Assembly (NCBI GenBank): GCA_003223835.1 | Contig: QHWR01000040.1 | Span: forward strand, 15,134-79,133 | DNA from: Acidobacteriota bacterium | GTDB taxonomy: Bacteria > Acidobacteriota > Vicinamibacteria > Vicinamibacterales > 2-12-FULL-66-21 | DNA: 64,000 bases | Reading direction: 5' to 3' | In this document: positions 20,469-36,398 of the stretch, in pieces | Numbering within the stretch: position 1 is the stretch's first letter | How the letters are laid out: every line of letters starts with the position of its first letter | Notes under the pieces: generated by a model | What the model was told of the DNA's origin: nothing | Databases searched by the model: none | Seen by the model: only the letters and a program-made list of their open reading frames with translations | Position numbers and translations under genes: made by a program

Positions 20469-21574
20469 TGCTGCTCCTCTGGACGCTCCTGATCGCGGCG
20501 CAGACGACGTCGGCACCCGGCGCGGCCGCGCGAGCGCCGGCGCCGGCCGATCGCGTCGAGGTCGTGCTGTTCTCCGACTTTCAGTGTCCGTTCTGCGCGC
20601 TGCTCGCGCAGCCGGTCCGCCAACTGGAGACCAAAGGCGTCGAGGGCGTGGACGTCACCGTCCGGTTCAAGAATTTCCCGCTCCCGATCCACCCGCGCGC
20701 GGCGCTCGCGCACCAGGCCGCGCTCGCCGCGATGCGGCAGGGCAAGTTCTGGGAGATGCACGACCTGCTCTTCGCGAACCAGCGCAAGGCGGAGCGCGAT
20801 GACGTGCTGGGATACGCGCGGACGCTGGGGCTCGACCTCGTTCGCTTCCAAAAGGACATCGACAGCGACGAGATCAAGGCGTCGATCGCCGCCGACAAGG
20901 CGGAAGGCGACAGGCGTCGCGTCACGGGAACGCCGACCTACTACATCAACGGCAAGCCGTACGTCGGCGCGCGCTCGTACGAGCAGTTGAAGCAGCTCGT
21001 CGTCGGCGAACAGCGTCGCGCGCGCGCGCTGGCCGACGTGACCGACACGATGGTGAGCCAGGGCGCGTCGGACGCGCCCGTGATCATCGAATTGTTTGCG
21101 GACCTCGAGAGTCCCATCAGTCCGTCGGCGGTGCGCGTGGTCGACGAGGTCATGGCGCGATATCCCGCGGAGGTTCGCGTGCAGTTCCGCAACCTGCCGC
21201 TCGCGTTCCATCCCGGCGCGGCGCTCGCGCACGAAGCGGCGATGACCGCCGCGAAGGCGGGGCGGTTCTGGGACTTCGCGCGCGGCGTGCTCGCGCGGCG
21301 GCAGCCGGCGACGGACCGCGACCTGATCGCGCTCGCCGGCCGCCTCGGCCTCGACGAGGCGGCGTTCGCCGACACGCTGCGCCAGCATCGCTACGCGGCG
21401 CGCGTGGACGCCGACCTCGACGTCGCGCGCACCCGCGGCGTGCGCGGCAGTCCGGCTCTGTTCGTCAACGGCAGGCGGATCGACGGCGTTCCGACGCTGG
21501 CCGTCCTGACCCAATACGTCGAAGCAGAACTCATGGCGAGGCACGTCGGGCGCCTGGAACAACACTCATCGTGA
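20465..21574 (+). CDS. Tandem DsbA-like thioredoxin-fold protein (two domains; the second lacks the CxxC)
   Basis: ATG 20465 overlaps the upstream stop (ATGA).
- Signal: MMLLLWTLLIAAQTTSAPG.
- Domain 1: …VEVVLFSDFQCPFCALLAQP…FKNFPLPIHPRAALAHQAALAAMRQGKFWEMHDLLF…
- Domain 2: …VIIELFADLESPISPSAVRV…FRNLPLAFHPGAALAHEAAMTAAKAGRFWDF… (SPIS in place of CPFC). Confidence 0.8.
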   Translation: MMLLLWTLLIAAQTTSAPGAAARAPAPADRVEVVLFSDFQCPFCALLAQPVRQLETKGVEGVDVTVRFKNFPLPIHPRAALAHQAALAAMRQGKFWEMHDLLFANQRKAERDDVLGYARTLGLDLVRFQKDIDSDEIKASIAADKAEGDRRRVTGTPTYYINGKPYVGARSYEQLKQLVVGEQRRARALADVTDTMVSQGASDAPVIIELFADLESPISPSAVRVVDEVMARYPAEVRVQFRNLPLAFHPGAALAHEAAMTAAKAGRFWDFARGVLARRQPATDRDLIALAGRLGLDEAAFADTLRQHRYAARVDADLDVARTRGVRGSPALFVNGRRIDGVPTLAVLTQYVEAELMARHVGRLEQHSS

Positions 21575-24500
21575 CCACTACCGCCACGCGTTTCGTCCGC
21601 CTGCTCGCGCTCGTCCTGCTGGCCGTGTGTCCGGCACGGGAGACGTTCGCGCAGCTCAACGAGAACTGCACGGTCAGCGTGCTCAACCGGAACGTCCGCG
21701 TCAACCCGGACGGCACGTGGGTCCTGCCCAACGTCCCGGCGAATTTCGGGCCGGTGCGCGCGCGCGCGACGTGCATCATCGACGGCAGGACGATCTCCGG
21801 CGAGTCCGAGCCGTTCCTGGTTCCGCCGAATGGCGCGGTGAACGTGCCGCGAATCGTGTTCGGCGAGCTGACCCCCATCCCCACGACCGTGACGGTCACC
21901 GCGCCGGCGTCCCTCCTGACGGCGCTGGGATCGACGCTGCAGCTCACCGTGACCGCGGCGTACGCCAACAACACCACGCGCGACGTGACGGCCGAGGCGA
22001 CCGGCACGCAGTACACGATCAGCAACTCCGCGATCGCGACCGTCAGCGGCAACGGCCTCGTGACGGCCGTCAAGGCGGGGATCGTGCTCGTCCAGGCCAC
22101 GCACGAAGGCGCGTCGGGCCTGATCTCGATCCGCATCGCGCCGTCCAACGCCGACGCAGACGGCGACGGGATCCCCGACGACGTGGAGGTCGCCCTCGGC
22201 TTGAACCCGCAGGATCCGACCGACGCCGCCGAGGACTTCGATCGTGACGGCCTCACGAACCTGCAGGAGTACCTGCTCGGCACGGACATCCGCAAGGCGG
22301 ACACCGACGGCGACGGCCTCACCGACGGCGACGAAGTCGCGCGCGGGACGAACCCGCTGCTCCGGGACACCGACGGCGACGGCATTTCCGACGGCCTCGA
22401 GGTGCAGACCGGCAGCAACCCGCTCGACGCGAACAGCTACAACCTCGCCGCCGCGCTCACGTCGGTCACCGTCGCGCCGGCGCAGTTCGTCCTGACGTTC
22501 AACACGATCCTCGGCGACGTGACGCTGCAGCTCAAGGTGACCGGGCATTTGAAAGACGGCTCGACGATCGATCTCACCTCGACGCGGCGCGGCACGAACT
22601 ACAACTCGAGCAACCTGAACGTCTGCAACTTCGGCGCGACCGACGGCATGGTCTTCGCCGGCGAAGAAGGCAGCTGCACGATTACCGCGACCGTTGCAAC
22701 CTTCACCGCGTCGTCATCCGGCAACGTCCACAAGTTCTCGCCGAAGCCGTTGTCGTTCGTCGATCTCGGCGGCCCGGGCAACAACATCGACGTGAGCGGC
22801 GACTACGCGTACGTCGCGGTCGGCGCGGCCGGGCTCAAGGTGGTGAACGTCAGCGATCGCAAGACGCCGCAAATCGTCGCGACGCTCAGCCTGCCGGGGA
22901 CCGCGAACGACGTGAAGCTCGCCGGGACCCGCGCGTATGTCGCCGCGGGCGCGGCCGGCCTCCACATCGTCGACGTCAGCAACCCGATTGCCCCCAGACT
23001 GATCGGCACGTTCGACACGGCGGGGAGCGCCAACGACGTGCGGTCGAACGGCAACCTCGCGTTCGTCGCCGATGGATCGGCCGGACTGGCCATCATCGAC
23101 GTCTCGACGCCGGATACGCCGCGGCTGATCGGCGCGCTGAGTGGGATTGGCACGGCCAACGGCGTCGACGTCGTCGGCGGGCTCGCCCTCATCGCCAACG
23201 GATCCATGCTGCGCGTCGTGGACGTGAGCAATCCCGCGAACCCGCGATCGATCGGCACGGTCAACCTGCCCGGCGACGCGCAGGACGTCGTGGCCAGAGG
23301 CACGACCGCGTACGTCGCGGACTACACCGGCAGCCTGCAGGTCGTGGACTTCACGACGCCGACGGCGCCCGTCGTGGTCGGGACGACGACGCAGGCGCTC
23401 GGCGGCATCCTCTACGACGTCGCCGTGTCCGGCAACTTCGTGTTCGGCGCCGACATCTTCTTCGTCAACGGCGTGCCGATCGTCGACGTCACGAATCCGC
23501 ACAGCCCGATCCCGCGGGCGATCCTCGACTTCCGGCAGTTCCGGGACGACAACGGGTCCGGCATCGCGGCGGACGGCAGCTACGTCTACCTGACGACCCT
23601 CGAGGGCCGGCTCTACATCGGCCAATACCGCCTGCTCGAGGATCTCTATGGCGTGGCGCCGACGGTCAGCATCTCGGCGCCGGCGCCGGGCGCGACGTTC
23701 GTCGAAGGGGAAACGATCCCGGTCAGCGTGGTCGCAACCGACGACGTGTCGGTCACGGCCGTCACGCTCGAGGTCGACGGCGCCGCCGCGGCGACCGACA
23801 CGACGGCGCCCTATCAATTCACGGTCACGGCGCCGCACGGCGCGACGGGCGTCACGCTCGGCGCCTCCGCCGTCGATCTCGGGAACAACGTTGGCGTCGC
23901 GGCGGACATCCAGGTCGCCGTGACACCCGATCCGCTGACGACAGCGGCGGGGCGCGTGGTGGACCGGAACGGCACGCCGGTTGGCGGCGCGACCGTGTCG
24001 TGTCTCGCGCACACGGGCGTCACGACACCGGACGGCGCGTTCGCGATCCCCGGACTGCCGACCATTCAGCCGACGGTCCTGTGCACCGCCGATTACGTCG
24101 ATGCGCAGGGGATCACGCAGCACGGCGCGTCGGCGCGCGTGCCGCCGGTCCGCGGCGGGATGACGCAGGTCGGCGACATCCGGCTGCTGGCGGTTCCCGT
24201 GATCGCCTCGATCACGCCGAAGGCGATCGACTCGTTCCGGCCGCCCACCACGCTTCACGTGACGGGCGTGAACCTCACCGGCGCGACGTTCGCGTTCGTG
24301 TCCGACACGACGCCGATCGTGACCGCTGGAACGCCGCAGATCGACGCCGGCGGGACGTCGGCGACGCTGCCGATCAACGTGACGTTCGGCGCGCAGGGCA
24401 CGCTCGTGCTGACGGCGACCAACAGCGTCGGGACGTCCGAGACGTTCGCGACCGCCGGCAATTCGCTCGTGGTGCTCAGCCTGACGCCGGCCGGCGACGC

Positions 24501-27500
24501 CGACAACGACGGCCTGACCAACGAGTACGAACTGGCGATCGGCACGGATCCCACGAGTCCCGACACCGATCACGATGGCATCCCCGACGGATGGGAAGTC
24601 CGGTTCGGCCTCAATCCGCTCGACGCGGCCGACGCGAACCAGGACGCGGACGGCGACGGCGCCACGAATCTGGAGGAGTTCGCCGCCGGCACCAGCCCGG
24701 TCAACCCGCACACCGTGCCGCCGGCGGTAGCGGAAGTGTTCCCGGCGAACGGCGCGACGAATTACCCGACGAACGGCGTGGTGATTGTCCGCTTCGACGA
24801 GCCGCTGCTGACAGCGGTGGCGATCGACGTCGCGAAGCAGGCGCTCGGCGCCGCGTTACCGGCGAGCCAGAGCCAGGTGGACCTCACAGCGGCGGCGCAG
24901 GCGCTGCAGGCGTACCTGCGGACGCACGGTGAAGGGGACACGGTCGTGCCGGGCACCGTCCGCGTGAGGCGGAACGGGATCGACGTGGCCGGCGCCGTCA
25001 CCTTGTCGAACGACAAGTTGTCGATCACGTTCACGCCGTCGCAGGCGCTGCTGGCGTCCTCGCTGTACACCGTGACCGTCGCCGGCGTTCGCGACGCCGC
25101 CGGCAATCCCATGACGCAGGCGTTCGAGAGCGTGTTCACCACCGGCCAGTCGGGGGACACGAGCGCTCCGCGCGTGTTGCTGACCAACCCGTCGAGCGGC
25201 ATGTCGGGCGTGCCGGTCAACGCGCCGGTGACCGTGCAGTTCACCAAACGTCTCGATCCCGCGACGCTGACCGCGCAAAGCTTCGCCGCGTACGACAACT
25301 TCACCGGCCAGCAGGTCGCCGGGATGATCCAGATGGAGCCGAGCGGTCTCGTCGCGTCGTTCGTCCCGCAGACGACGTGGGCGCCGGGCCGATCGTTCAG
25401 CGTCTATCTGAACACCGACATCAAGGACTCGGCCGGCAACCGGCTCCAGTCGTACTCGTTCTCGTTCTCGACGGCGTTCTTCGCCGACGCGCAGGGCCCG
25501 CACATCGTGGGCACCAGTCCCGCGGACGGCGATACGAACGTGCCGTTGAACGTCCCGATCGTCGTGCAGTTCGACGAGGCCGTGAACACGATTCGCGGGG
25601 CGGCGGGCGTCCAGGTGTTCGCGCAGGGCCAGCCCATCCCGGGCTCGATCGCGCTTTCCGACGGCAACCGGCGGATCACGTTCACGCCGGCGTCGGCGCT
25701 GGCGCCGAACACCGCTTACACCATCGTTCCGAGCGCGCAGCTCACGGACATCGCGGGGAACCTCGTTGCCGCGTTCACGAACGCGACGTTCACGACGGGC
25801 GCCGCGGCGGACAACACCACGCCGTCCGTGACGGCGGTGAGTCCCGCGAATGGCGCCGGGGGAGTGCCGACCAATACGGTCGTCCAACTGAGCTTCAACG
25901 AGCCGATCAACCGGCTGACCGTGAACGCCGCGACCTTCGTCGTGTATCCGCAGGCGACCGGCATCCCGGTGGCGGCGACCTATGCGGTCTCCGCGGACGG
26001 TCGAAACGCGACGCTGATTCCGGCCAGCCCGCTCGTCTCGCTGACCGGCTATTACGTCAGCATGAGCGGCATCTCGGATGCCGTCGGTCATGCGACGTCT
26101 ACATTCACGAGCTTTACGACCGGCGCGGCCGCCGACACCGCGCCGCCGACGGTCGTGGCGATCAGCCCGGCCGGCGGCGCGACCAACGTGCCGCTCAACG
26201 CGCGCGTCGTCGTGCGCCTGAGCGAACCGATCAACCCCTCCTCGGCGACGACGGCCGCGGTGAAACTGACCGCGGGGGGCAATGCGGCAGCGGCGACGGT
26301 GGCGCTGAGTGCCGACCGCCTCACGATCACGCTGACGCCGGGGGCGCCGCTCGCCGCCTCGACGCTCTACACGGTCAAGGTCAGCGGGCTCACGAACCTC
26401 GCGGGCCTGGAGGTCGTGGCGGCGACCAGCACGTTCACGACCGGCACCGCCGCCAGCGGTCCGCAGCTCGCGGTCACCTCGTTCACGCCGGCCAACAACA
26501 GCGTGAACGTGCCGGTGGACAGCCCGATCCTCGTGACGTTCAACGCGCCGATCGATCCGACGTCGGTCAACGTCAACTCGGTCTTCGTGTTCGTGTCCGG
26601 AGCGGGAGCGGTCTCCGGCACGTTTGCCGTCCAGGGCAACAGCGTGACCTACACGCCCGTGAGTTCATTCCCCGGCAATACGACCGTGTCGGTGCAGGTG
26701 TCCGGCGTCCTCGACGTCGCCGGCCACGGGAACAACTTCGCGAGCATGTCGTTCCGCACGGTCGCCGCGCCCGACACGACCGCGCCGGCGGTGATCAGCG
26801 TGACGCCCGGGGACGGCGCGATGGGCATCGGGCTCAACGCGCAGGTGGTCGTGACCTTCTCGGAGTCGGTGAACCCGTCGACGGTGAACAACAACACGAT
26901 CGCGCTGTTCGCGAACGGCGGCCGCTTCGGCAACATCGCGGGGATCTCGGCGGACAACCGCACCGTCGTGCTGAACGGTGGAATGTTGCCGGCGTCGAGC
27001 GTCGTCACGGTGGCGCTCACGAGCGCGATACAGGATCTGTCGGGGAACAGGCTCGCCGACTTCACGACGGCGTTCACGACGGCGCCTCCCTTCGACACGG
27101 CACGGCCGTCGGTCGTCAGCCAGCGGCCCGGCAACGGCGCGAGCGGCGTGGCCGCGGGAACCCGCATCGTGCTCTTCCTGAGCGAGCCGCTCGACGCGAC
27201 CACGGTGCCCTCCGCGCTGCACGTGTCGCAGAACGGCGCGTTGGTCGACGGCGTGGTGCAGGTCAGCGGCAACGGCCAGGTGATTCAGTTCTTCCCGGCG
27301 GAGCCGTGGGCGGGCAACGCGCTGGTTCAGGTGTTCCTCGACACGACCGCGCGCGATCTGCAGGGCAACAGCGTCTCGGCGTATCAGGCCTCGTTCCGCA
27401 CCGCCGCGGATCCGCAAACGACGCGTCCGGTGGTGACGGCGGTCAGCCCGGTGTACGGCGCGGGGAATGCGCCGCTCAACACGGTCGTCACGATCGGGTA

Positions 27501-30500
27501 CAGCCTGCCGCTGGATCCCGCGACGGTGACGGCGACTACGGTCACGATGACCGGACCGGCCGGCGCGGTGAACATCGCCGTCACGCTCGACGCGACCGGC
27601 CAGGTCATTCGCCTCGTGCCGGCGGGCCCGCTGGTTGCGAACTCGTACTACTTCTACCAGACGACGGCCGCGATCCGCGGGATCAACGGGCTGGCGCCGC
27701 AGAATCCCGGGTCTTGGTACTTCTATACGGGCGGACCCCTCGACGCGACCGCGCCCGCGGTGCGGTCCATCACGCCGCCGCCCGCGGCCGTCAGCGTCGG
27801 CGACAACGCGCGCATCATCGTGCGTTTCACGGAGCAGGTGAATCCGCTCACCGTCAACGGGACGACGCTTTCGGTCGCTGCGAACGCGTCCGTGCCCACG
27901 TCGGTCACGTTCTCGAACCAGAACATGGACGTGTATCTGGAGCCGTACGCGCCGCTGCCCGACGGGCAGTCGGTAACGGTCGCCATCGCCGGCGTCACCG
28001 ATATCGCCGGCAATCCCGTGACCGCCACGTCGGCGCAATTCACCGTCGGCGCGGGACCTGACGTGAAACCGCCGACGACGCTCGCGGAGAACCCCGTCAA
28101 CGGCCTCACGAACGTGCCGATCAATGCCGTCGTCTCGCTGCTGTTCAACGAGCCGATCGATCCGAGCTCCGTCACGCCGGGCGCGTTCCAGGTCTACGAC
28201 AACGTCGTCGGCCAGGTGAGCGGCAGCTACACGGTGAGCGGCGACGGCCGGCTGGTGACCTTCGTCCAGGCGAAGCCGTTCGGCATCGACCGGTCGCACA
28301 GCGTGTACTTCGCGAACCAGGGGATCACCGATCTCGCGGGCAACCTCGCGAACGGCTCGGGCTTCTCGAACTTCAGCTTCACGACGGGCGTGTCGGCGAA
28401 CGTCACCGGCCCGCAGGTGATCGGGATCAGCCCGGCCGATCAGCTCACGGACGTCTCGCGCAACGCGCAGGTCGTCATCGATTTCGATCGGCCGATCAAC
28501 ACGCTCACGGCGCCGCAGATCGCGCTGTCGGCGGCCGGGTCCCCCGTCGCGACGTTCACGTCGTTCTCGAGCGGCGACCGGCGCGTCACGCTGACGCCCG
28601 TGAATCCGCTCGCGGCGGCGACGGTTCACGCGATCACGATCGGCGCGATTACGGATCTGAGCGGCGCGCCGCTTGCGACGCCCGTCGTCACGCAGTTCAC
28701 CACCGCGCCGGGCGTGGATCTGGTCGGCCCGCAGGTCACGTCGGTGAGCCCTGCGAACGGCGCGACGTCCGTGCCGACGAACACGGTCGTCCAGTTGACC
28801 TTCAGCGAGCGGATGAACCCGCTGACGGTGAACGGGAGCACGTTCCAGGTGTACCCGCAGGCGACGGGATTGCCGGTCGCGGGCGTCTACGTCGTGGCGA
28901 GCGACGGCCGAAGCGCTACCTTCACGCCGAGCGCCGCGCTCTCCGCATCCACGGGCTACTACATCAGCGTCAGCGGGATCGCCGATCTCACCGGCCAGGG
29001 GGCGAACACTTTCACCAGCTTCGCGACGGCCGCGGGACCGCAGATCGCACGTCCGACCGTTGCCGGGATCAGCCCGCCTGACGGCGCCACGAACGTGCCG
29101 TTGAACGGCCGCGTCGTCGTCCGGATGAGCGAGCCGGTGAGCCCGCTCTCGCTCAACGCGGAGGCGCTGACGTTATCGGCCGCCGGCAGCCTCGTGCCGG
29201 CCGCGGTGGCTCTCAGCGGGGATCGCCTCACTCTCACGCTGACGCCGAACGCGCCGCTCACCGCGTCGACGACGCATACGGTCGCCATCGCGCATCTGAC
29301 CAACGTCGTCGGCGCCGAAGTGCTGCCCGTGACGAGCGCCTTCACGACGGGCACGACGACGGCCGGCAGCAATTCGCTGACCGTGTCGTCGATCGCGCCA
29401 GCCAACGGCGCGCAGAACGTGCCCGTGGACAGCACGGTGAGGGTCACGTTCAGCACGGCTGTCGATCCGACCTCCGTCAACGTGAATACGGTGACGATCT
29501 ATCTGTCGGGCGTGACCAATCTGGCGGGTTCGTACGTGGTGCAGGGGGCGACGGTCACATTCACGCCGCTCAATCCGCTGCCCGGGAACACGACGATCTC
29601 GGTGCAGGTCTCCGGCGTCGTCGACTTCGCGGGACACGGGAACAACTACACGAACATCTCGTTCAAGACGGCGGCAGTGCCCGATACGACGGCGCCCACC
29701 GTCGTCAGCATCACCCCGAGCGAGGGCGCGACCGGCGTCGGGCCGAACGCGCAGGTCGTGATCGCGTTCTCGGAGTCGCTGAACGCCGCGACGGTGAGGA
29801 ACAACACCGTGGCGCTGTTCGTGAACGGCGCGCGGTTCGGCAACGTGGTGTCGGTCTCGGCCGACGCCCGCACCGTCGTCCTCGGCGGCGGCACGTGGCC
29901 GGCGTCGAGCCTCGTCACGGTGGCGTTGACGAGCGCGGTGCAGGACGTGTCCGGCAATCCGCTCGCGGACTTCACGAGCACCTTCACGACGGCGCCCGCG
30001 TTCGACACGGCGCGGCCGTCGGTGGTGAGCCAGCGGCCCGCGAACGGCTCGAGCGGCGTCGCTGCGAGCACGGACGTGGTGTTCTTCCTCAGCGAACCGC
30101 TCGATCCGGCGACGGTGCCGGACGCCGTGCACATCTCCGAGAACGGCGTGCTGGTGGACGGCACGGTGCAGGTGAGCGGCAACGGTCAGGTGATTCAGTT
30201 CGCGCCGGCGGAGCCATGGGCGGGCGGCGCGTTGATTCAGGTCTTCCTCGAATCGAGCGCGCGCGATCGCAACGGCAATAGTGTCTTCGCGTATCAGGCG
30301 TCGTTCCGCACGGCGTCCGATCCGCAGACGACGAGGCCGGCCCCGACCGCGGTGAGCCCGGTGTACGGCGCGTCGAACGTGCCGCTCAATACGGCGATCA
30401 CGATCGGCTACAACGTCCCGCTCGATCCGGCGACCGTGACGACGAGCACCGTCACGATGAGCGGCCCCGCCGGCGCGGTCAGCGCGGCCGTCAGCCTCGA

Positions 30501-33500
30501 CGCGACGGGCCAGGTGATCCGTCTCGTGCCGTCGGCGCCGCTGCTGCCGAACAATTACTACTACTACCAGGTGAGCACCGCGATCCGCGGAACGAACGGC
30601 CTGACGCCGCAGAACCAGGGTTCCTGGTACTTCTACACCGCGACGACGAGCGATACGATCGCGCCCGGCGTCCTGTCGGTGACGCCGCCTGCCGCCGCGA
30701 TCAACGTCGGCGACAACGCGCGCATTGTCGTGCGCTTCACCGAGCCGGTGAACACGCTCACGGTGAACGCGGCGACGCTGTCGGTAAGGGGCACGACGCC
30801 GATCGCCGGCGCGCTCAGCTTCGCCAACCAGAATCAGGACGTGTATCTGGAGCCGTTCACGCCGCTGCCCGACGGGCAGGTCCTGACGGTGGCGATCGAC
30901 GGCGTGACCGACGTCGCGGGGAATCCCGTCGCGGCGGTGACGTCGCAGTTCGCCGTCGGCGCCGGACCCGACGTGGCGGTGCCGGTGGTGCTCGCCATCA
31001 ATCCGGTGAACGGCCTCACGAACGTGCCGACGAACGTGGCGGTCTCGCTGCTCCTGAACGAGCCCATCGATCCGAGCTCGGTGACGCGCTCGAGCCTCCA
31101 GATCTACGACAACGTCGTCGGCCAGGTGAACGGCGCCTACACGGTGAGCAGCGACGGCCGCACGGTGACGTTCGTGCCGGGCGCGCCGCTCGGCGTGAGC
31201 CGCTCGCACAGCGTGTACTTCGCCAATCAGGGGATGACCGACCTCGCCGGCAATCTGGTGAACGGGTCGGGCTTCTCGAACTTCAGCTTCACGACGGGCG
31301 CGTCCGCGAACACGACGGCGCCGCAGGTGGTCGGGATCAGCCCGGCGGATCAGCTGACCGACGTCTCGCGCAACGTGCAGGTCGTCGTCGATCTCGATCG
31401 CCCGATCGACACGCTGACGGCGTCGCAGATCACGCTTGCGGCGAGCAGCGGAACGATCCCGGTCATCATGACGTTCGCCAACGGCGACCGCCGGATCACG
31501 CTGACGCCGATCGCGCCGCTGGCGGCCGCGACCGCCTACACCGTCACCGTGGGCGCGATTACGGATCTCAGCGGGATTCCGCTCGCCACGCCGGTGGTCA
31601 GTCATTTCACGACCACGACCGGCGTCGATCTGAACGGACCGCAGGTGAGCGTCGTCAGCCCGATCAACGGTGGAACGGGTGTGCCGACGAACGCGCTGAT
31701 TCAGCTCGGGTTCACCGAGCGCATGAATCCGCTGACCGTCAACGCCGGCACGTTCCGGCTCTATCCGCAGGCGACGGGGATTGTGATTGCCGGATCGTAC
31801 TCGGTCGCCGCCGACGGCCGGAGCGCGACGTTCACGCCGTCCGCGCCGCTGGCGCCGTCGACCGCCTACTACATCGACGTCAACGGCGTCGTGGATCTGA
31901 CCGGACAGGCCGCCTCGACGTTCACGAGCTTCACGACCGGGACAGCCGCGCAGGTCGCGCGGCCGACGGTCGTCACCGTCAGTCCGGCTGACGGCACGTC
32001 GGACGTGCCGCTCAACGCCAAGGTGTCCATGCTCGTGAGCGCGGCGATCAGCCCCGTGACGATCGGGAGCATGGCCGTCACGTTGTCGGCCAACGGCAGC
32101 AGCGTCGCCGGATCGATCTCGCTCAGCGCGGATCGCAGACAACTGACGCTGACGCCCGCCGCCGCGCTGGCGCCGAATACCACTTACACGGTGTTCGTCG
32201 GCGGCTTCGCGGACGTCGCCGGCAACCTCGTGCTGCCGTTCGGCAGCACGTTCACGACCGGGACCGCGGCGACCGACACCGGGCCGCTCGTCGTGAGCGC
32301 CTTCACCCCGGCGAACGGCACCCAGAACGTGCCGGTGAACAGCACCGTCGTCGTCCGGTTCAACAAGGCGGTCAGCCCGGTGACCGTCAACACGAACACG
32401 ATCGTGGTGTCGTACGCCGGCGTCAGCCACGTGGCGGGCGCCTACGCGGTCAGCGGCGGCACGGTGACGTTCACGCCGGCGAGCCCGTTCCCAGGCAATA
32501 CCAGCATCTCGGTGCAGGTGACGGGCGTCCAGGATCTGATCGGCAACGCGAACGGGTTCGCGTCCGCCTCCTTCGTGACGGCCGCCGTGGCGGATACGAC
32601 GCCGCCCGAGGTGGCGAGCGTGACGCCCGCCGACGGATCGGGCGACGTCGGCCTCAACGCGCAGGTCGTCGTGACGTTCTCCGAATCGCTGAATCCCGCG
32701 ACGGTGAGCAACAACACGTTCGCGTTGTTCGCCAACGGCATCCGCATCGGCAACATCGCGTCGGTGTCGGCCGACAACCGGACCGTCGTGCTGAGCGGCG
32801 GCACACTGCCGGCCGCGAGTCTCATCAGCCTCGTCATCACGAGCGCCGTTCGTGACCTCGCCGGGAACGCGCTCGCGGACTTCGTGAGCGGGTTCACCAC
32901 CGAGGATGCGCCCGACACGTCACGGCCGAGCATCGTGAGCCAGCGGCCGGCGAACGGCGCGAGCGGCGTGTCCGCCGCGAGCGGCGTCGTCCTGTTCGTC
33001 AGCGAGCCGCTCAACCCCGCAACCGTCGGGGCGGCGATCCACGTCTCGCAGAACGGCGTGCTCGTCGACGGGACGGCGCAGGTGACCGGCAACGGGCAGG
33101 TGATTCAGTTCCAGCCGGCCGTGGCGTGGGCGCCGAACGCGCTGATCCAGGTGTTCCTCGACGGCAACGCACAGGATCTGCAGGGCAACGCGCTCAACTC
33201 GTACCAAAGCTCGTTCCGGATCGCCGTCGATCCGCAGACCGCCGCGCCGGTCGCGACCGCGGTGAGCCCGGCGTACGGCTCGCAGAACGTGCCGCTGAAT
33301 CCGAGCATCGCCGTCGGTTACAACCAACCGCTCGATCCCGCGACGGTCAATACGTCCACGGTCAGCCTGAACGGCCCCGCGGGCAGGGTCAACGCGTCGG
33401 TCGGCCTCGATTCGACGGGAACGGTGATTCGGATCCTGCCCGTTGACGCGAGCAACAACCGGGTCGATCTGGCGCCCAACGCGTTCTACTACTACCAGAC

Positions 33501-34878
33501 GAACGGGATTCGCGGCACGAACGGCGTCGCCGCGCAGAATTCGGGCTACTGGTACTTCTACACGGGCACCGATCGCGACGCGACGGCGCCGTCCGTGCGC
33601 GCCATCACGCCGCCGGCGGGCTCGACGAACGTCGGCGACAACGCTCGCATCGTCGTCCGCTTCTCCGAGCCGCTGAATCCGTTGACGGTGAACAATGGGA
33701 CGATCGCGGTGACGGGCGCCGCGGCTGTGACGGGCTCCTTCAGTTTCGCCAACCAGAACAAGGATGTGTATCTCGAACCGTACGCGCCGTTGCCGGATAG
33801 CCAGACGCTCACGATCACGATCGCGGGCGTGACCGACGTCAGCGGCAACGCGGTGACCACGACGACCGCTCAGTTCGGCGTGGCGGCGGGCCCGGACGTC
33901 GCGGTGCCGGTCGTCCTGGCGGAAAACCCGGTCGGCGGGCTGACGAACGTGCCGACGAACGCCGTCGTCTCGCTGCTGCTGAACGAGCCGATCGATCCGG
34001 GCTCGGTGACCACCTCCACGATGCAGGTGTACGACAACGTTCTCGGCAAGCAGGTCGCCGGGAGCTACGCCGTCAGCAGCGACGGACGGACGATCAGCTT
34101 CGTGGCCGACTCGCCGCTCGCCGCGAACCACAGCCACAGCGTGTACTTCGCCAATCAGGGGATGACGGATCTGGCGGGCAACCTCGTGAACGGCAGCGGC
34201 TTCTCGAACTTCAGCTTCACCACCGGATCGACGGCGGACCTCACCGGACCGCAGGTCACCGCCATCAGCCCGGCGGATCAATTGACGAACGTGCCGCGCA
34301 ACGGGTCCGTCATGATCGGGTTCGATCGGCCGATCAACACGCTGACGGCATCGCAGATCACGCTTGCCACCGCGGCCGGAACGCCCGTGCCGGTCGCGAG
34401 GACGTTCTCGAACGGCGACGCGCGCGTCACGCTGACGCCGCTCGCGCCGCTGTCCGCCTCGACTTCTTACAGGGTCACGGTAGGCGCCGTCGCGGACCTG
34501 ACCGGCACCGCGCTGGCGACGCCGGTGGAGAGCCGCTTCACCACCGGCACCGGGGCCGATCTGACGCCGCCCGTGGTCACGAGCGTGTCGCCGATCAACG
34601 GCGCGCAAAACGTGCCGACGAACGTCGTCGTCCAGGTCACGTTCAACGAGCGGATGAATCCGCTGACGATCGCGCGCTCGACGTTCCAGGTGATCGATCA
34701 GAGCACCGGCATCGCGATCGCGGGCGACGTCGTCGTGTCGTCCGACGGCTTGACGGCGGCGTTCATTCCGGCGGCGGCGCTGACGCCGTCGGCGGGCTAC
34801 TATGTGCAGGGCTCCGGATGGGCGAACCTGGCGGGCCTGCAGACGAGCGTGTTTACGAGTTTCAGAACGGGTCAATGA
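21571..34878 (+). CDS. Giant (4,435 aa) secreted multidomain Ig-repeat protein: Big_2, TSP3-like Ca-binding repeats, LVIVD propeller repeats, then ~31 SbsA/Big_5-like Ig modules
   Basis: Uninterrupted 13,308-nt ORF. The GTG start overlaps the upstream stop (GTGA). Signal peptide MTTTATRFVRLLALVLLAVCPARETFAQ. Domain calls come from motif reading (see findings). The long antisense ORFs across it are Arg-rich shadows. Confidence 0.92.
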   Translation: MTTTATRFVRLLALVLLAVCPARETFAQLNENCTVSVLNRNVRVNPDGTWVLPNVPANFGPVRARATCIIDGRTISGESEPFLVPPNGAVNVPRIVFGELTPIPTTVTVTAPASLLTALGSTLQLTVTAAYANNTTRDVTAEATGTQYTISNSAIATVSGNGLVTAVKAGIVLVQATHEGASGLISIRIAPSNADADGDGIPDDVEVALGLNPQDPTDAAEDFDRDGLTNLQEYLLGTDIRKADTDGDGLTDGDEVARGTNPLLRDTDGDGISDGLEVQTGSNPLDANSYNLAAALTSVTVAPAQFVLTFNTILGDVTLQLKVTGHLKDGSTIDLTSTRRGTNYNSSNLNVCNFGATDGMVFAGEEGSCTITATVATFTASSSGNVHKFSPKPLSFVDLGGPGNNIDVSGDYAYVAVGAAGLKVVNVSDRKTPQIVATLSLPGTANDVKLAGTRAYVAAGAAGLHIVDVSNPIAPRLIGTFDTAGSANDVRSNGNLAFVADGSAGLAIIDVSTPDTPRLIGALSGIGTANGVDVVGGLALIANGSMLRVVDVSNPANPRSIGTVNLPGDAQDVVARGTTAYVADYTGSLQVVDFTTPTAPVVVGTTTQALGGILYDVAVSGNFVFGADIFFVNGVPIVDVTNPHSPIPRAILDFRQFRDDNGSGIAADGSYVYLTTLEGRLYIGQYRLLEDLYGVAPTVSISAPAPGATFVEGETIPVSVVATDDVSVTAVTLEVDGAAAATDTTAPYQFTVTAPHGATGVTLGASAVDLGNNVGVAADIQVAVTPDPLTTAAGRVVDRNGTPVGGATVSCLAHTGVTTPDGAFAIPGLPTIQPTVLCTADYVDAQGITQHGASARVPPVRGGMTQVGDIRLLAVPVIASITPKAIDSFRPPTTLHVTGVNLTGATFAFVSDTTPIVTAGTPQIDAGGTSATLPINVTFGAQGTLVLTATNSVGTSETFATAGNSLVVLSLTPAGDADNDGLTNEYELAIGTDPTSPDTDHDGIPDGWEVRFGLNPLDAADANQDADGDGATNLEEFAAGTSPVNPHTVPPAVAEVFPANGATNYPTNGVVIVRFDEPLLTAVAIDVAKQALGAALPASQSQVDLTAAAQALQAYLRTHGEGDTVVPGTVRVRRNGIDVAGAVTLSNDKLSITFTPSQALLASSLYTVTVAGVRDAAGNPMTQAFESVFTTGQSGDTSAPRVLLTNPSSGMSGVPVNAPVTVQFTKRLDPATLTAQSFAAYDNFTGQQVAGMIQMEPSGLVASFVPQTTWAPGRSFSVYLNTDIKDSAGNRLQSYSFSFSTAFFADAQGPHIVGTSPADGDTNVPLNVPIVVQFDEAVNTIRGAAGVQVFAQGQPIPGSIALSDGNRRITFTPASALAPNTAYTIVPSAQLTDIAGNLVAAFTNATFTTGAAADNTTPSVTAVSPANGAGGVPTNTVVQLSFNEPINRLTVNAATFVVYPQATGIPVAATYAVSADGRNATLIPASPLVSLTGYYVSMSGISDAVGHATSTFTSFTTGAAADTAPPTVVAISPAGGATNVPLNARVVVRLSEPINPSSATTAAVKLTAGGNAAAATVALSADRLTITLTPGAPLAASTLYTVKVSGLTNLAGLEVVAATSTFTTGTAASGPQLAVTSFTPANNSVNVPVDSPILVTFNAPIDPTSVNVNSVFVFVSGAGAVSGTFAVQGNSVTYTPVSSFPGNTTVSVQVSGVLDVAGHGNNFASMSFRTVAAPDTTAPAVISVTPGDGAMGIGLNAQVVVTFSESVNPSTVNNNTIALFANGGRFGNIAGISADNRTVVLNGGMLPASSVVTVALTSAIQDLSGNRLADFTTAFTTAPPFDTARPSVVSQRPGNGASGVAAGTRIVLFLSEPLDATTVPSALHVSQNGALVDGVVQVSGNGQVIQFFPAEPWAGNALVQVFLDTTARDLQGNSVSAYQASFRTAADPQTTRPVVTAVSPVYGAGNAPLNTVVTIGYSLPLDPATVTATTVTMTGPAGAVNIAVTLDATGQVIRLVPAGPLVANSYYFYQTTAAIRGINGLAPQNPGSWYFYTGGPLDATAPAVRSITPPPAAVSVGDNARIIVRFTEQVNPLTVNGTTLSVAANASVPTSVTFSNQNMDVYLEPYAPLPDGQSVTVAIAGVTDIAGNPVTATSAQFTVGAGPDVKPPTTLAENPVNGLTNVPINAVVSLLFNEPIDPSSVTPGAFQVYDNVVGQVSGSYTVSGDGRLVTFVQAKPFGIDRSHSVYFANQGITDLAGNLANGSGFSNFSFTTGVSANVTGPQVIGISPADQLTDVSRNAQVVIDFDRPINTLTAPQIALSAAGSPVATFTSFSSGDRRVTLTPVNPLAAATVHAITIGAITDLSGAPLATPVVTQFTTAPGVDLVGPQVTSVSPANGATSVPTNTVVQLTFSERMNPLTVNGSTFQVYPQATGLPVAGVYVVASDGRSATFTPSAALSASTGYYISVSGIADLTGQGANTFTSFATAAGPQIARPTVAGISPPDGATNVPLNGRVVVRMSEPVSPLSLNAEALTLSAAGSLVPAAVALSGDRLTLTLTPNAPLTASTTHTVAIAHLTNVVGAEVLPVTSAFTTGTTTAGSNSLTVSSIAPANGAQNVPVDSTVRVTFSTAVDPTSVNVNTVTIYLSGVTNLAGSYVVQGATVTFTPLNPLPGNTTISVQVSGVVDFAGHGNNYTNISFKTAAVPDTTAPTVVSITPSEGATGVGPNAQVVIAFSESLNAATVRNNTVALFVNGARFGNVVSVSADARTVVLGGGTWPASSLVTVALTSAVQDVSGNPLADFTSTFTTAPAFDTARPSVVSQRPANGSSGVAASTDVVFFLSEPLDPATVPDAVHISENGVLVDGTVQVSGNGQVIQFAPAEPWAGGALIQVFLESSARDRNGNSVFAYQASFRTASDPQTTRPAPTAVSPVYGASNVPLNTAITIGYNVPLDPATVTTSTVTMSGPAGAVSAAVSLDATGQVIRLVPSAPLLPNNYYYYQVSTAIRGTNGLTPQNQGSWYFYTATTSDTIAPGVLSVTPPAAAINVGDNARIVVRFTEPVNTLTVNAATLSVRGTTPIAGALSFANQNQDVYLEPFTPLPDGQVLTVAIDGVTDVAGNPVAAVTSQFAVGAGPDVAVPVVLAINPVNGLTNVPTNVAVSLLLNEPIDPSSVTRSSLQIYDNVVGQVNGAYTVSSDGRTVTFVPGAPLGVSRSHSVYFANQGMTDLAGNLVNGSGFSNFSFTTGASANTTAPQVVGISPADQLTDVSRNVQVVVDLDRPIDTLTASQITLAASSGTIPVIMTFANGDRRITLTPIAPLAAATAYTVTVGAITDLSGIPLATPVVSHFTTTTGVDLNGPQVSVVSPINGGTGVPTNALIQLGFTERMNPLTVNAGTFRLYPQATGIVIAGSYSVAADGRSATFTPSAPLAPSTAYYIDVNGVVDLTGQAASTFTSFTTGTAAQVARPTVVTVSPADGTSDVPLNAKVSMLVSAAISPVTIGSMAVTLSANGSSVAGSISLSADRRQLTLTPAAALAPNTTYTVFVGGFADVAGNLVLPFGSTFTTGTAATDTGPLVVSAFTPANGTQNVPVNSTVVVRFNKAVSPVTVNTNTIVVSYAGVSHVAGAYAVSGGTVTFTPASPFPGNTSISVQVTGVQDLIGNANGFASASFVTAAVADTTPPEVASVTPADGSGDVGLNAQVVVTFSESLNPATVSNNTFALFANGIRIGNIASVSADNRTVVLSGGTLPAASLISLVITSAVRDLAGNALADFVSGFTTEDAPDTSRPSIVSQRPANGASGVSAASGVVLFVSEPLNPATVGAAIHVSQNGVLVDGTAQVTGNGQVIQFQPAVAWAPNALIQVFLDGNAQDLQGNALNSYQSSFRIAVDPQTAAPVATAVSPAYGSQNVPLNPSIAVGYNQPLDPATVNTSTVSLNGPAGRVNASVGLDSTGTVIRILPVDASNNRVDLAPNAFYYYQTNGIRGTNGVAAQNSGYWYFYTGTDRDATAPSVRAITPPAGSTNVGDNARIVVRFSEPLNPLTVNNGTIAVTGAAAVTGSFSFANQNKDVYLEPYAPLPDSQTLTITIAGVTDVSGNAVTTTTAQFGVAAGPDVAVPVVLAENPVGGLTNVPTNAVVSLLLNEPIDPGSVTTSTMQVYDNVLGKQVAGSYAVSSDGRTISFVADSPLAANHSHSVYFANQGMTDLAGNLVNGSGFSNFSFTTGSTADLTGPQVTAISPADQLTNVPRNGSVMIGFDRPINTLTASQITLATAAGTPVPVARTFSNGDARVTLTPLAPLSASTSYRVTVGAVADLTGTALATPVESRFTTGTGADLTPPVVTSVSPINGAQNVPTNVVVQVTFNERMNPLTIARSTFQVIDQSTGIAIAGDVVVSSDGLTAAFIPAAALTPSAGYYVQGSGWANLAGLQTSVFTSFRTGQ
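25819..34878 (+). repeat. Intragenic tandem super-repeat: a ~2.9-kb (nine Ig modules) unit, about 3.1 copies
   Basis: Unit starts:
- 25819: TPSVTAVSPANGAGGVPTNTVVQLSFNEPINRLTVNAATFVVYPQATG
- 28726: GPQVTSVSPANGATSVPTNTVVQLTFSERMNPLTVNGSTFQVYPQATG
- 31636: GPQVSVVSPINGGTGVPTNALIQLGFTERMNPLTVNAGTFRLYPQATG
- 34564: TPPVVTSVSPINGAQNVPTNVVVQVTFNERMNPLTIARSTFQV
Spacings are 2907, 2910 and 2928 nt. The copies have diverged (roughly three-quarters aa identity by eye). Confidence 0.85.
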
Positions 34879-36398
34879 GCCGCCGAACGCCGGGCGCGTT
34901 GTGGACTCTCGCGCTCGCCGGTTCCGTGCTGTCGACGTGGGAGACCGCCGCGCAGTCGCGGCGTCCGGCGTCGCGGATCGGCCAGGAAACGGCGGTCGCC
35001 CGGCACCTGCGAGACGGCGAGGAGTTCAGCCTGCCGCTCGCCGCGCTCGTCGATCACGGCCGCATACTCTTCTCGGCGAACTGGACCGCGCAGGACGGCG
35101 GCGGCCGGCCGCTCGCCAAGGGCACCGGAGAAGCGCTGTCGGACCGCGCGCGGCCTCTCGAGGGTACGCGCGCGTTCAACCGGATCTCCGGTCCGGATGC
35201 GAACTCCTGTCAGGGCTGCCACAACGCGCCCTTCGGCATCACGGGCGGCAAGGGCGACGTCGTCACGAACACGTTCGACGCGGCCGAACGGTTCGACTTC
35301 GCGACGTTCGATCGCACCGACAAGCGGAGCACCGTCGGAGCCGTTGACGAACAGGGCCGTCCGGTCTCTCTCCAGACCGTTGGCGGCGAGCGTTCGACGC
35401 CGGCGCTGTTCGGTGCCGGCTACGTCGAGATGCTGGCGCGGCAAATCACCGCCGACCTGCAGCGGACGCGCGACGCGACGCAGCCCGGCCAGACGCGTCC
35501 GCTGCTGTCGAAAAGCATCTCGTTCGGGACGCTCGCGCGTCGCGCCGACGGCGCCTGGGACGTCAGCCGCGTCGAGGGTTTGCCCCGCGCCAGCGTCGTC
35601 ACGTCGCGTCCCGGCGACAAGCCGAGCCTCGTGCTGCGGCCGTGGAACCACGCCGGCACGGCGGTGTCGCTGCGCGAGGTCACCAACACGCAGTTCAATC
35701 TGCACCACGGCATGCAGTCGTCGGAACGGTTCGGCGCCGGCGTCGACGCCGATCGAGACGGCGTCGCCGACGAGCTGACGCGCGCCGACATCACGGCCGT
35801 CAGCGCATTCGAAGCGACGCTGCCCGTGCCGGGCCGCGTGATTCCGAACGATCCGGACGTCGAAAAGGCTGTCTCGATCGGCGAGCGCCTCTTCGCGCAA
35901 ATCCGGTGCAGCGCCTGCCACATGCCATCGCTGCCGCTGGATCATAAAGGATGGATCTATTCGGAGCCGGGGCCGTACAATCCGCCACGCAACCTGCGCC
36001 GCGGGACCGTGCGGGTGCTCGACGTCGATCTGACGAGCGCGCTGCTGCCGCCGCCCCGCTTGACGCCGTCTATCGCGGACCGGGACGTCGTTCAGGTGCC
36101 GGCGTATTCGGATTTCAAGCGCCACGATCTCGGCGACGCCGGCGGTCCGTTTCTCACGGCCCGCCTCTGGGGGATCGCGAACGCGCCGCCGTACTTCCAT
36201 CACGGCCTCTTCACGACGATGCGGCAGGCCGTGCTGGCGCATGGCGGGGAGGCCCTGGAGCAGCGCGAGGCGTTCCGGCAGCTCTCCGCGCCGGATCAGG
36301 ATGCGCTGATCGAATTCCTCAAGACGCTGCAGGTGTTGCCGCCGGGGACCAAAGATCTCGTCGTCGACGAACACTATAAAGCCCGAAGCCAACCATGA
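34875..36398 (+). CDS. Di-haem oxidoreductase / putative peroxidase (DUF1111 family), paralog B
   Basis: ATG 34875 overlaps the giant gene's stop (ATGA). Colinear with paralog A (…DANSCQGCHNAPF…, …QIRCSACHMPSLPL…, …PYFHHGLFTTMRQAVLAHGGEA…). It lacks a ~20-aa Cys-containing stretch that A has (DICDGGGREPLDQNQSQWSKKLMDGNC). Confidence 0.8.
   Translation: MSRRTPGALWTLALAGSVLSTWETAAQSRRPASRIGQETAVARHLRDGEEFSLPLAALVDHGRILFSANWTAQDGGGRPLAKGTGEALSDRARPLEGTRAFNRISGPDANSCQGCHNAPFGITGGKGDVVTNTFDAAERFDFATFDRTDKRSTVGAVDEQGRPVSLQTVGGERSTPALFGAGYVEMLARQITADLQRTRDATQPGQTRPLLSKSISFGTLARRADGAWDVSRVEGLPRASVVTSRPGDKPSLVLRPWNHAGTAVSLREVTNTQFNLHHGMQSSERFGAGVDADRDGVADELTRADITAVSAFEATLPVPGRVIPNDPDVEKAVSIGERLFAQIRCSACHMPSLPLDHKGWIYSEPGPYNPPRNLRRGTVRVLDVDLTSALLPPPRLTPSIADRDVVQVPAYSDFKRHDLGDAGGPFLTARLWGIANAPPYFHHGLFTTMRQAVLAHGGEALEQREAFRQLSAPDQDALIEFLKTLQVLPPGTKDLVVDEHYKARSQP

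What the first reader, a model, noticed from the sequence alone, without database searches (positions are those of the whole stretch)
25819..34878. Ancient tandem triplication of a nine-module (2.9 kb) block inside the giant gene
- Beyond the ~320-nt module periodicity there is a higher-order period. Blocks starting at 25819, 28726, 31636 and 34564 are colinear module for module, with spacings of 2907, 2910 and 2928 nt. The last copy is cut off after one module.
- Corresponding modules stay clearly more similar to each other than to their neighbours in the same block. Example: TTAPAVISVTPGDGAMGIGLNAQVVVTFSESVNPSTVNNNTIALFANGGRFGN vs TTAPTVVSITPSEGATGVGPNAQVVIAFSESLNAATVRNNTVALFVNGARFGN vs TTPPEVASVTPADGSGDVGLNAQVVVTFSESLNPATVSNNTFALFANGIRIGN.
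- The copies have diverged, so they are not recent, and all are still in frame. This implies selection for length or valency rather than a fresh slippage or assembly artefact.
- The gene ending inside a copy suggests the C-terminal boundary was set by the duplication itself.
Basis: seen in the sequence. Interest (0 to 1): 0.6.

Follow-up and report, generated by a model that had tools for sequence, protein, structure and literature searches.

The report
Nine-domain super-repeat in giant surface protein
A 4,435-residue secreted protein of an uncultured soil Acidobacterium carries three old, diverged, in-frame copies of a nine-domain block of Ig-like domains; this is a real but ordinary case of a repeat protein lengthening by block duplication, and relatives carry one, two or three copies of the same block.

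Summary
ORF 21571..34878 (4,435 aa) has 31 Big_5 Ig-like domains. Domains 3-30 form a nine-domain higher-order repeat: blocks A (25822-28728), B (28729-31638) and C (31639-34569), plus one terminal domain (34570-34875).

All 30 same-position domain pairs (at least 45.8% identity) exceed all 348 other pairs (at most 45.5%). The 2,910-nt offset has z = 30.7. Domains cluster by position, not by block.

Synonymous sites are almost saturated, yet proteins stay 61-67% identical, so the copies are old and under purifying selection. Two independent assemblies rule out an artefact.

- The nine-domain order belongs to a widespread 13-domain cassette (0-1-2-[3..11]-3').
- Relatives have 1, 2 or 3 blocks, amplified independently.
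- They all end in the same terminal domain, so duplication did not set the C-terminus.
- There were at least two steps. Block C separated before the split from a 31-domain ortholog; A and B separated, or were homogenised, afterwards.

The likely mechanism (inferred) is unequal recombination between the two type-3 domains flanking the block. The likely role (inferred) is a long extracellular stalk. This is a new member of a known kind and of modest interest.

The parts
21571..34878 (+). Giant gene, 4,435 aa. It runs: Sec-type signal peptide (by inspection), Big_2, TSP3 repeats, LVIVD beta-propeller, Big_7, more TSP3-like repeats, then 31 Big_5 domains.
   Evidence: ORF list, translation and Pfam. 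Its GTG start overlaps the stop of the upstream DsbA-like ORF, which ends at 21574.
21571..24720 (+). Non-repetitive 'head', aa 1-1050. It belongs to a large family seen mostly in Acidobacteriota, whose other members carry different tails.
   Evidence: 4,108 hits. None of the 120 listed has PF13205 (Big_5). The best hit, P0005 at 67%, is the head of the L003 ortholog.
24721..25821 (+). Big_5 domains 0, 1 and 2, which lie outside the higher-order repeat. Domain 0 carries an insertion of about 40 aa.
   Evidence: Identity to domains 9 positions downstream is only 36-39%. The orthologs in L003 are 58-64% identical.
25822..28728 (+). Block A: domains 3-11 (types 3-11), 969 aa.
   Evidence: A-B identity is 67.3% aa and 73.6% nt.
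28729..31638 (+). Block B: domains 12-20, 970 aa.
   Evidence: B-C identity is 63.2% aa and 69.9% nt. An independent assembly (L002) spans the A-B junction.
31639..34569 (+). Block C: domains 21-29, 977 aa. It has a 6-aa insertion in its type-8 domain.
   Evidence: A-C identity is 61.1% aa. Its positional orthologs are 70-91% identical in P0122 and 63.1% on average in L003.
34570..34875 (+). Terminal domain 30 (type 3'), the last domain of the protein. It is ancestral to the family and is not a truncated fourth copy.
   Evidence: It is 51-60% identical to domains 3, 12 and 21. Orthologous terminal domains occur in L003 (56%), P0122 (85%), P0127 (83%) and P0124 (67%), and in single-block relatives.
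34875..36398 (+). Downstream DHOR-like di-haem cytochrome c gene. Its ATG overlaps the giant gene's TGA (ATGA), which leaves no room for decayed repeat remnants.
   Evidence: Sequence and Pfam DHOR/Cytochrom_C. The same neighbour follows the ortholog in L003.

Best explanation
The region is a domain super-repeat (higher-order repeat) inside the Big_5 Ig-like stalk of a giant secreted protein.

The family's ancestral tail is an ordered cassette of 13 domains, 0-1-2-[3-4-5-6-7-8-9-10-11]-3'. Its first and last core domains (types 3 and 3') are each other's closest relatives. They therefore form a direct repeat of about 320 nt, spaced 2.9 kb apart.

Unequal recombination between those two domains duplicates exactly nine domains (inferred). 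This happened repeatedly and independently in different lineages, giving 1, 2 or 3 blocks.

In the lineage of this window, block C separated from the A/B ancestor before the divergence from the L003 lineage. A and B either separated afterwards in parallel in both lineages or were homogenised by gene conversion after that divergence. No exchange is recent.

Since then the copies have evolved under purifying selection with the copy number held. This fits a structural role as a long extracellular spacer or stalk of 31 beta-sandwich domains carrying the N-terminal propeller head (inferred). Block-wise growth keeps neighbouring domains only about 32% identical, which is the condition thought to limit inter-domain misfolding (inferred).
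For: Shown:
- Periodicity and complete separation of same-position from other domain pairs.
- Monophyly of domain types across two genomes, with type-specific indels shared across blocks.
- Near-saturated synonymous sites at 61-67% amino-acid identity.
- An ortholog with the same 31 domains.
- P0122, P0127 and P0124 are positional orthologs of domains 18-30 or 22-30 at 62-91%.
- Relatives with one block (L008, an intact 1,790-aa ORF; the partial MAG proteins P0129, P0131, P0135, P0136, P0138, P0142 show a single pass) and with two blocks (L007, an intact 2,776-aa ORF; L013), all ending in type 3'.
- The six W/L003 blocks form a clade with 100% bootstrap, apart from the L007/L008, L013 and P0129 blocks. 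L013's two blocks are sisters (100%). Amplifications are therefore lineage-specific.
- In single-block relatives, types 3 and 3' are 57-74% identical and are the most similar pair in each protein.
- (W_A,W_B) has 99-100% support and (L_A,L_B) 100%. W_C+L_C has 86% and 97% support for types 4 and 5.
- A single domain models as a confident beta-sandwich (pLDDT 92.9). It is nearest to the S-layer SbsC Ig-like domains.

Literature:
- Multi-domain block duplication is the commonest mode of repeat expansion (PMC1553488).
- Neighbouring domains in tandem-repeat proteins have divergent sequences, probably through pressure to avoid misfolding (PMC4660218 abstract).
Against: - The recombination mechanism is inferred from architecture only. 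No junction scars survive at this divergence.
- With only one full-length ortholog, parallel duplication of A/B and gene conversion cannot be told apart.
- Support for W_C+L_C is only 44-52% on concatenated data and is absent for types 7 and 9-11. Composition differences between the genomes could inflate within-genome similarity.
- The stalk role is untested. No anchoring or sorting domain was recognised.
- The strict conservation of domain order across phyla could mean position-specific functions rather than mere length.
- Many bacterial adhesins tolerate near-identical neighbouring repeats, so the anti-misfolding argument is not compelling on its own (my own knowledge).
Confidence: 0.8

Rival explanations
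1. All three blocks already existed in the common ancestor with the L003 lineage. The high A-B similarity within each genome comes from concerted evolution, meaning gene conversion between adjacent blocks that continued after the lineages split.
For: - Both genomes have exactly 31 domains and are collinear without block-sized gaps.
- The phylogenetic signal is mosaic along the block. Types 4, 5 and 8 group W_C with L_C, while types 7 and 9-11 do not.
- The pattern of which block pairs are closest at each type is similar in both genomes.
Against: - No conversion tracts are visible. The longest shared exact run is 34 nt and synonymous sites are close to saturation.
- A and B show essentially no positional orthology signal: 58.0% and 60.5% against 58.2% for non-positional pairs.
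- The family demonstrably re-amplifies blocks independently.
Confidence: 0.45
2. The common ancestor had two blocks (AB-ancestor and C). The first block was then duplicated independently in the window lineage and in the L003 lineage.
For: - (W_A,W_B) and (L_A,L_B) have 99-100% bootstrap support.
- Block C retains orthology.
- Independent amplifications occur elsewhere in the family, in L013 and L007.
Against: - It requires the same block to be duplicated twice to the same final number.
- Within the window genome, C is also closer to A/B (61.5-63.9%) than to L003's A/B (57.6%). A simple two-step tree does not predict this.
Confidence: 0.4
3. The periodicity is an artefact, either an assembly that concatenated strain variants of one block or a recent slippage expansion.
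For: Repeats often break or mis-join short-read assemblies. The sister assembly is fragmented here: L002 is a 5.7-kb contig made only of repeats.
Against: - Blocks are only 70-74% identical at the nucleotide level, with at most 34 nt of exact identity.
- L002 independently reproduces the A-to-B order at 99.3%.
- A distant ortholog on a 165-kb contig has the same 31 domains.
- The 13.3-kb reading frame is intact.
Confidence: 0.02
4. The nine-domain period is functional in itself. Each domain type would have a position-specific role and the super-repeat would match a periodic partner or lattice, as the titin super-repeats match the thick filament. Selection would then act on the ordered unit, not just on length.
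For: - The order 0-1-2-3..11-3 is kept across proteins from several phyla and with unrelated heads. 47 of 120 homologs follow the cycle in at least 90% of steps.
- Each type carries signature motifs and indels.
Against: - Order conservation follows from descent alone if the cassette is inherited and duplicated as a unit.
- The search was seeded with a whole block, which favours ordered hits.
- No partner is known, and copy number varies from 1 to 3.
Confidence: 0.15

Closest known systems
Domain super-repeats made by multi-domain block duplication (nebulin 7-module unit; titin A-band 7- and 11-domain Ig/Fn3 super-repeats)
   Same: - Similarity between domains peaks at a fixed lag greater than 1.
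- Same-position domains cluster together.
- Neighbouring domains are dissimilar.
- Expansion happens inside the repeat region.

PMC1553488 reports that duplication of several domains at a time is the commonest mode of expansion and that nebulin expands by seven domains. The titin figures come from my own knowledge.
   Different: This case is bacterial, has no introns, uses Big_5 domains and has a period of nine. No periodic binding partner is known. Copy number is low (1-3) and varies between lineages.
Giant bacterial Ig-like repeat adhesins (SiiE with 53 BIg domains; LapA/MpIBP-type RTX adhesins)
   Same: A very long extracellular protein built mostly of tandem Ig-like beta-sandwich domains, presumed to act as an extender (SiiE: PMC5466336 and PMC6272769, listed).
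   Different: Pfam found no RTX or haemolysin-type calcium-binding repeats. The protein has an N-terminal Sec-type signal rather than a C-terminal T1SS signal (by inspection). No T1SS genes were found among the 10 neighbours scanned. The domains are Big_5, not BIg/Big_3. The repeats are diverged and ordered rather than near-identical.
S-layer proteins SbsA/SbsC of Geobacillus (source of the Big_5 / SbsA_Ig domain)
   Same: The domain fold matches. The AF2 model of one domain (pLDDT 92.9) hits SbsC structures 4uic, 4uj6 and 2ra1 first. It also carries the Pfam Big_5 assignment.
   Different: Sequence identity to SbsC is only 17-18%. No sequence-level PDB hit was found. No S-layer anchoring domain was detected. 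The architecture is entirely different: a propeller head plus 31 domains.

Membership tests
Big_5 (PF13205) Ig-like domain array | Matches the Pfam Big_5 profile above the gathering score. | tested here: met
   31 stretches, 1458.7 bits against a cut-off of 23.6.
Big_5 (PF13205) Ig-like domain array | Ig-like beta-sandwich fold. | tested here: met
   all-beta model with pLDDT 92.9; the top Foldseek hits are SbsC Ig-like domains, CopC and the Ig domains of L,D-transpeptidases (probability 1.00, TM 0.65-0.76).
Domain super-repeat / higher-order repeat from block duplication | Inter-domain similarity peaks at a constant lag greater than 1 and its multiples. | tested here: met
   61.8% at lag 9 and 57.0% at lag 18, against about 32%; z = 30.7 and 15.7 at 2,910 and 5,820 nt.
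Domain super-repeat / higher-order repeat from block duplication | Domains cluster by position in the block, not by block. | tested here: met
   type monophyly across two genomes in 50-100% of bootstraps (at least 79% for 8 of 9 types); no overlap between same-position and other pairs.
Domain super-repeat / higher-order repeat from block duplication | Copy number changes in whole blocks among relatives. | tested here: met
   L008 has 1 block, L007 has 2, and the window and L003 have 3. All have the same flanks 0-1-2 and 3'.
Titin-type super-repeat (functional ruler) | The period matches the spacing of a periodic binding partner. | not testable with these tools
   No partner is known. This needs structural or biochemical work.
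RTX / T1SS giant adhesins (LapA, SiiE, MpIBP type) | C-terminal RTX repeats and secretion signal, plus an adjacent T1SS (ABC transporter, MFP, TolC-like). | tested here: not met
   no RTX-type family among the Pfam hits, and the C-terminus is a plain Big_5 domain; the neighbours are DHOR-like, DsbA-like, TonB-dependent receptor and others, with no T1SS parts in the 10 ORFs scanned.
S-layer proteins (SbsA/SbsC type) | A cell-wall anchoring module (SLH or SCWP-binding N-terminus) and self-assembly into a lattice. | tested here: inconclusive
   No SLH or similar family appears. Self-assembly cannot be tested here.
Concerted evolution of tandem duplicates | Paralogs within a genome are more similar than positional orthologs between genomes, with a mosaic signal along the unit. 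| tested here: inconclusive
   the pattern is present for A/B and for types 7 and 9-11. Parallel duplication predicts much of the same, and only one full-length ortholog is available.

The most novel reading that the evidence does not exclude
The 13-domain ordered Big_5 cassette (0-1-2-[3..11]-3') would be a conserved, transferable 'stalk module'. It is fused to unrelated heads: a propeller head here and RHS/TIG heads in L007 and L008. Its two type-3 domains would act as built-in recombination handles, making length evolvable in quanta of nine domains (very roughly 35-40 nm if each domain spans about 4 nm, which is an assumed figure). The fixed domain order would reflect position-specific roles, for example matching a periodic partner or lattice as titin super-repeats do.
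Probability: 0.15. Interest if true: 0.6.

Novelty: new member of a known kind. Interest (0 to 1): 0.35.

Why it matters
This is a clean bacterial example of how giant repeat proteins grow: by duplicating a multi-domain block rather than single domains. The ancestral one-block state, a two-block state and the three-block state are all still observable in relatives.

It also shows that a 'partial last copy' can be the ancestral flank that seeds duplication rather than a truncation.

In practice, it flags a conserved 13-domain Big_5 cassette that could be annotated as a unit. It also gives a test set for separating gene conversion from parallel duplication in old tandem repeats. It does not reveal a new kind of system.

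Tried and rejected
- blastp of the giant protein against itself returned only the trivial self-hit. I replaced it with chunked queries and per-domain global alignments.
- Nucleotide global alignments of domains with lenient gap costs gave about 70-80% for every pair and were uninformative. I replaced them with a frameshift-aware protein-to-DNA alignment of the L003 ortholog.
- The genome-contig scan with domains 0-2 gave only one weak locus, L004, which I did not use.
- An exact look-up of the 4,435-aa product found no record, so the source contig was not identified.
- A sequence search of block B against the PDB found nothing at E <= 1e-3.
- The two-domain alignment A2 was badly registered (341 columns) and was dropped in favour of the single-domain alignment A3.
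- NG86 dN/dS should not be read as a precise estimate, because GC3 is 0.92 and synonymous sites are near saturation.
- I considered that domains 1-2 are an older, decayed partial block (types 10-11). Domain 1 does best match type 10 (37-39%), but domain 2 matches type 4 better than type 11, so I do not claim this.
- I considered a CopC-like copper-binding role because of faint CopC hits. These reflect the shared beta-sandwich fold only, and I rejected the idea without testing for binding residues.
Full report
**1. What is there**

The window carries one very long ORF, 21571..34878 on the + strand, of 4,435 aa.

- Pfam finds Big_2, three bacterial TSP3 repeats, six LVIVD repeats (a beta-propeller), Big_7, and then 31 Big_5 (PF13205) Ig-like domains from aa 1051 to the last residue.
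- The N-terminus (…RFVRLLALVLLAVCPARETFA/QL…) looks like a Sec signal peptide. This is by inspection only.
- An HMM built from the protein itself places the domain starts at aa 1051, 1200, 1310, 1418, … 4334. I number these domains 0-30.
- The start codon overlaps the stop of a DsbA-like ORF (GTGA). The stop overlaps the ATG of a DHOR-like di-haem cytochrome gene (ATGA).

**2.

- Within 25819-34878, base identity is 0.589 at in-frame offset 2910 and 0.464 at offset 5820. The background over 2,157 other in-frame offsets is 0.333 +/- 0.008, giving z = 30.7 and 15.7 (whole-gene scan).
- In the domain identity matrix, lag 9 averages 61.8% and lag 18 averages 57.0%, against about 32% at other lags.
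- Among domains 3-30, all 30 same-position pairs (at least 45.8%) exceed all 348 other pairs (at most 45.5%).
- The blocks are A = domains 3-11 (25822-28728), B = 12-20 (28729-31638) and C = 21-29 (31639-34569), followed by domain 30 (34570-34875).
- Domains 0-2 are outside the repeat, with 36-39% identity at lag 9.

**3. It is not an artefact and not recent**

- Blocks are 70-74% identical in DNA, with no exact shared run longer than 34 nt.
- An independent MAG assembly (GCA_003222655.1, 'Acidobacteria bacterium', contig QHWS01000527.1 = L002) is collinear with window 25700-31413 at 99.3% identity. It therefore crosses the A-B boundary.
- GC3 is 0.919. At aligned sites with the same amino acid, the same codon is used in 62-66% of cases, against 56% expected from codon usage alone. 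Synonymous sites are therefore nearly saturated. The first three domain types show no residual signal, and types 6-11 show a little.
- Amino-acid identity is nevertheless 61-67%. NG86 gives dN/dS of 0.36-0.42, which overestimates omega because dS is saturated.
- The copies are therefore old and under purifying selection.

**4. Tree test**

In an NJ bootstrap analysis of all domains of this gene and of its ortholog in L003, each of the nine types is monophyletic:

| Type | Bootstrap support |
|---|---|
| 3 | 79% |
| 4 | 50% |
| 5 | 92% |
| 6-9 and 11 | 99-100% |
| 10 | 82% |

- Type-specific indels are shared by all blocks.
- The refutation criterion, grouping by block, is not met.

**5. Relatives**

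*The 31-domain ortholog.* L003 (ENA ERZ25039565, contig_48045, 165 kb) carries an ortholog.

- It is collinear with window 21652-36376 at 69% nucleotide identity.
- About 15 frameshifts break it, with no in-frame stop substitutions.
- After frameshift-aware reconstruction it has the same 31 domains, and it has the same DHOR-DsbA-giant-DHOR neighbourhood.

*Closer partial relatives.* P0122, P0127 and P0124 are positional orthologs of domains 18-30 or 22-30 at 62-91% identity.

*Relatives with fewer blocks.* A metagenome scan with domains 0-2 found them.

- L008 is an intact 1,790-aa ORF reading 0-1-2-[3..11]-3', so it has one block.
- L007 (identical to L006 over their shared domains) is an intact 2,776-aa ORF with two blocks plus 3'.
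- L013 has at least two blocks.
- These tails follow RHS/TIG N-terminal regions, not the propeller head.

*The wider family.* I classified 120 database homologs of block B with type HMMs.

- 47 follow the cycle 0-1-2-3…11-3 in at least 90% of steps.
- 46 show a type again nine domains later.
- 31 end exactly at …10-11-3, commonly with the tail FTTGTQ.
- The sources label these proteins Acidobacteria, Gammaproteobacteria, Methylococcales, Pseudonocardiaceae, 'Ca. Nephthysia' and others.

Conversely, the head family (4,108 hits) normally lacks Big_5 tails.

**6. History in this lineage**

- On concatenated blocks, the six blocks of the window and L003 form a clade (100%), apart from the blocks of L007/L008, L013 and P0129. 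L013's two blocks are sisters (100%). Amplification therefore happened independently in several lineages.
- Inside the clade, (W_A,W_B) and (L_A,L_B) have 99-100% support.
- W_C+L_C has 44-52% support overall, but 86%, 97% and 69% for types 4, 5 and 8.

Mean identities:

| Comparison | Mean aa identity |
|---|---|
| Window A-B / B-C / A-C | 67.6 / 63.9 / 61.5% |
| L003 A-B / B-C / A-C | 65.3 / 58.6 / 59.5% |
| Positional orthologs A / B / C | 58.0 / 60.5 / 63.1% |
| Non-positional cross-genome pairs | about 58% |

- Block C therefore predates the split of the two lineages. A linker feature shared by both C blocks but not by the A and B blocks supports this (…G-PL.V.A.TP).
- A and B either arose after the split in both lineages or were homogenised after it. 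I cannot separate these two options with one full-length ortholog.
- Positional orthology with P0122 shows no homogenisation since that more recent split.

**7. The C-terminus**

Four results argue against this.

- Single-block relatives already end with the type-3' domain.
- In those relatives, types 3 and 3' are the most similar pair in the protein (57-74%, against a mean of about 35%).
- The terminal domain is orthologous across L003, P0122, P0127 and P0124.
- The stop overlaps the next gene's start.

The terminal 'ninth of a copy' is therefore ancestral. It also suggests the mechanism. Two similar domains 2.9 kb apart form a direct repeat, and unequal recombination between them yields exactly nine-domain duplications. 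That would explain the same period arising independently. This step is inferred, not shown.

**8. What it does**

- One domain models as a confident beta-sandwich (pLDDT 92.9) and is nearest to the Ig-like domains of the S-layer protein SbsC. There is no sequence-level PDB relative.
- No RTX repeats, T1SS neighbours or known anchor domain were found.
- My best reading is a long extracellular stalk or spacer carrying the propeller head. This is inference.
- Growth by blocks keeps neighbouring domains at about 32% identity. That fits the idea that neighbouring homologous domains diverge to avoid misfolding (PMC4660218 abstract).

**9. Comparison with what is known**

- Multi-domain block duplication is described as the commonest way in which domain repeats expand. 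Nebulin's seven-domain unit is the textbook case (PMC1553488).
- Titin super-repeats are the best-known Ig-like example (my own knowledge).
- This is a bacterial Big_5 instance with period nine. It is a new member of a known kind.

**10. Verdict**

The interest is modest. The most useful by-products are the conserved 13-domain cassette and the series of one-, two- and three-block relatives.

Noticed in passing
window 27190-27229 versus L002 1490/1491: The 99.3%-identical sister assembly (GCA_003222655.1, QHWS01000527.1) lacks 40 nt that are present in the window, inside domain 7 of block A. This shifts the frame and splits its gene call in two. It could be an assembly error or a real disrupting deletion in that population.
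   Followed up: partly
L003 3600-7500, and fewer up to 12600: The ortholog on ENA contig_48045 has about 15 one- or two-base frameshifts and no stop substitutions. Most lie in domains 1-12, while its 3.3-kb head ORF is intact. They look like consensus indel errors next to short G/C runs, but their clustering is unexplained and pseudogenisation is not excluded.
   Followed up: partly
L007 367-17320; L008 1636-14189: In other lineages the same ordered Big_5 cassette follows an RHS-repeat/TIG region and a 2,200-2,600-aa RHS/TIG ORF instead of the propeller head. The head family of the window gene usually has no Big_5 tail. The whole cassette seems to have been shuffled between unrelated giant proteins.
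   Followed up: partly
window 18801-21574 and 34875-36398; L001/L003 flanks: The neighbourhood is conserved: DHOR-like di-haem protein, DsbA-like thioredoxin, giant gene, second DHOR-like cytochrome. Start and stop codons overlap on both sides of the giant gene, which suggests one operon. The head contains several cysteines, which fits the adjacent DsbA.
   Followed up: partly
window 37463-38929 and 38938-41343: A TonB-dependent receptor (CarboxypepD_reg, Plug, OMP beta-barrel) is split into two ORFs in different frames. This is a frameshift, either a sequencing error or a pseudogene.
   Followed up: partly
window 24721-25167 (domain 0, aa about 1080-1123): Domain 0 carries an insertion of about 40 aa (…AVAIDVAKQALGAALPASQSQVDLTAAAQALQAYLRTHGEGDT…) in the middle of the Ig-like fold. 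It is conserved in L003 and absent from the Gammaproteobacteria-labelled homolog P0129.
   Followed up: no
window 25168-25497 (domain 1): Domain 1 best matches the type-10 domains (37-39%, against about 28% for most other types), and L008's domain 1 was classified as type 10. Domain 2 is closest to type 4. This may be a trace of older duplications inside the cassette.
   Followed up: no
C-termini of family members (window 34858-34875): Family members end right after the last domain with a conserved F-(T/R)-T-G-(T)-Q tail (FTTGTQ in 8 of 31; SFRTGQ here). No known sorting signal was recognised, and the meaning of the conserved end is unknown.
   Followed up: no
window 41434-42924 (-): A selenocysteine synthase gene (SelA, E = 1e-132) lies about 6.5 kb downstream, so the organism probably makes selenoproteins.
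   Followed up: no
window 22299-22424: Tandem Repeats Finder reports a 66-nt repeat of 1.9 copies at 78% identity, which corresponds to the TSP3 calcium-binding repeats of the head. Apart from a 46-nt, 18-nt-period hit at 30148-30193, TRF found no tandem repeat in the Big_5 region, because the domains are too diverged.
   Followed up: no
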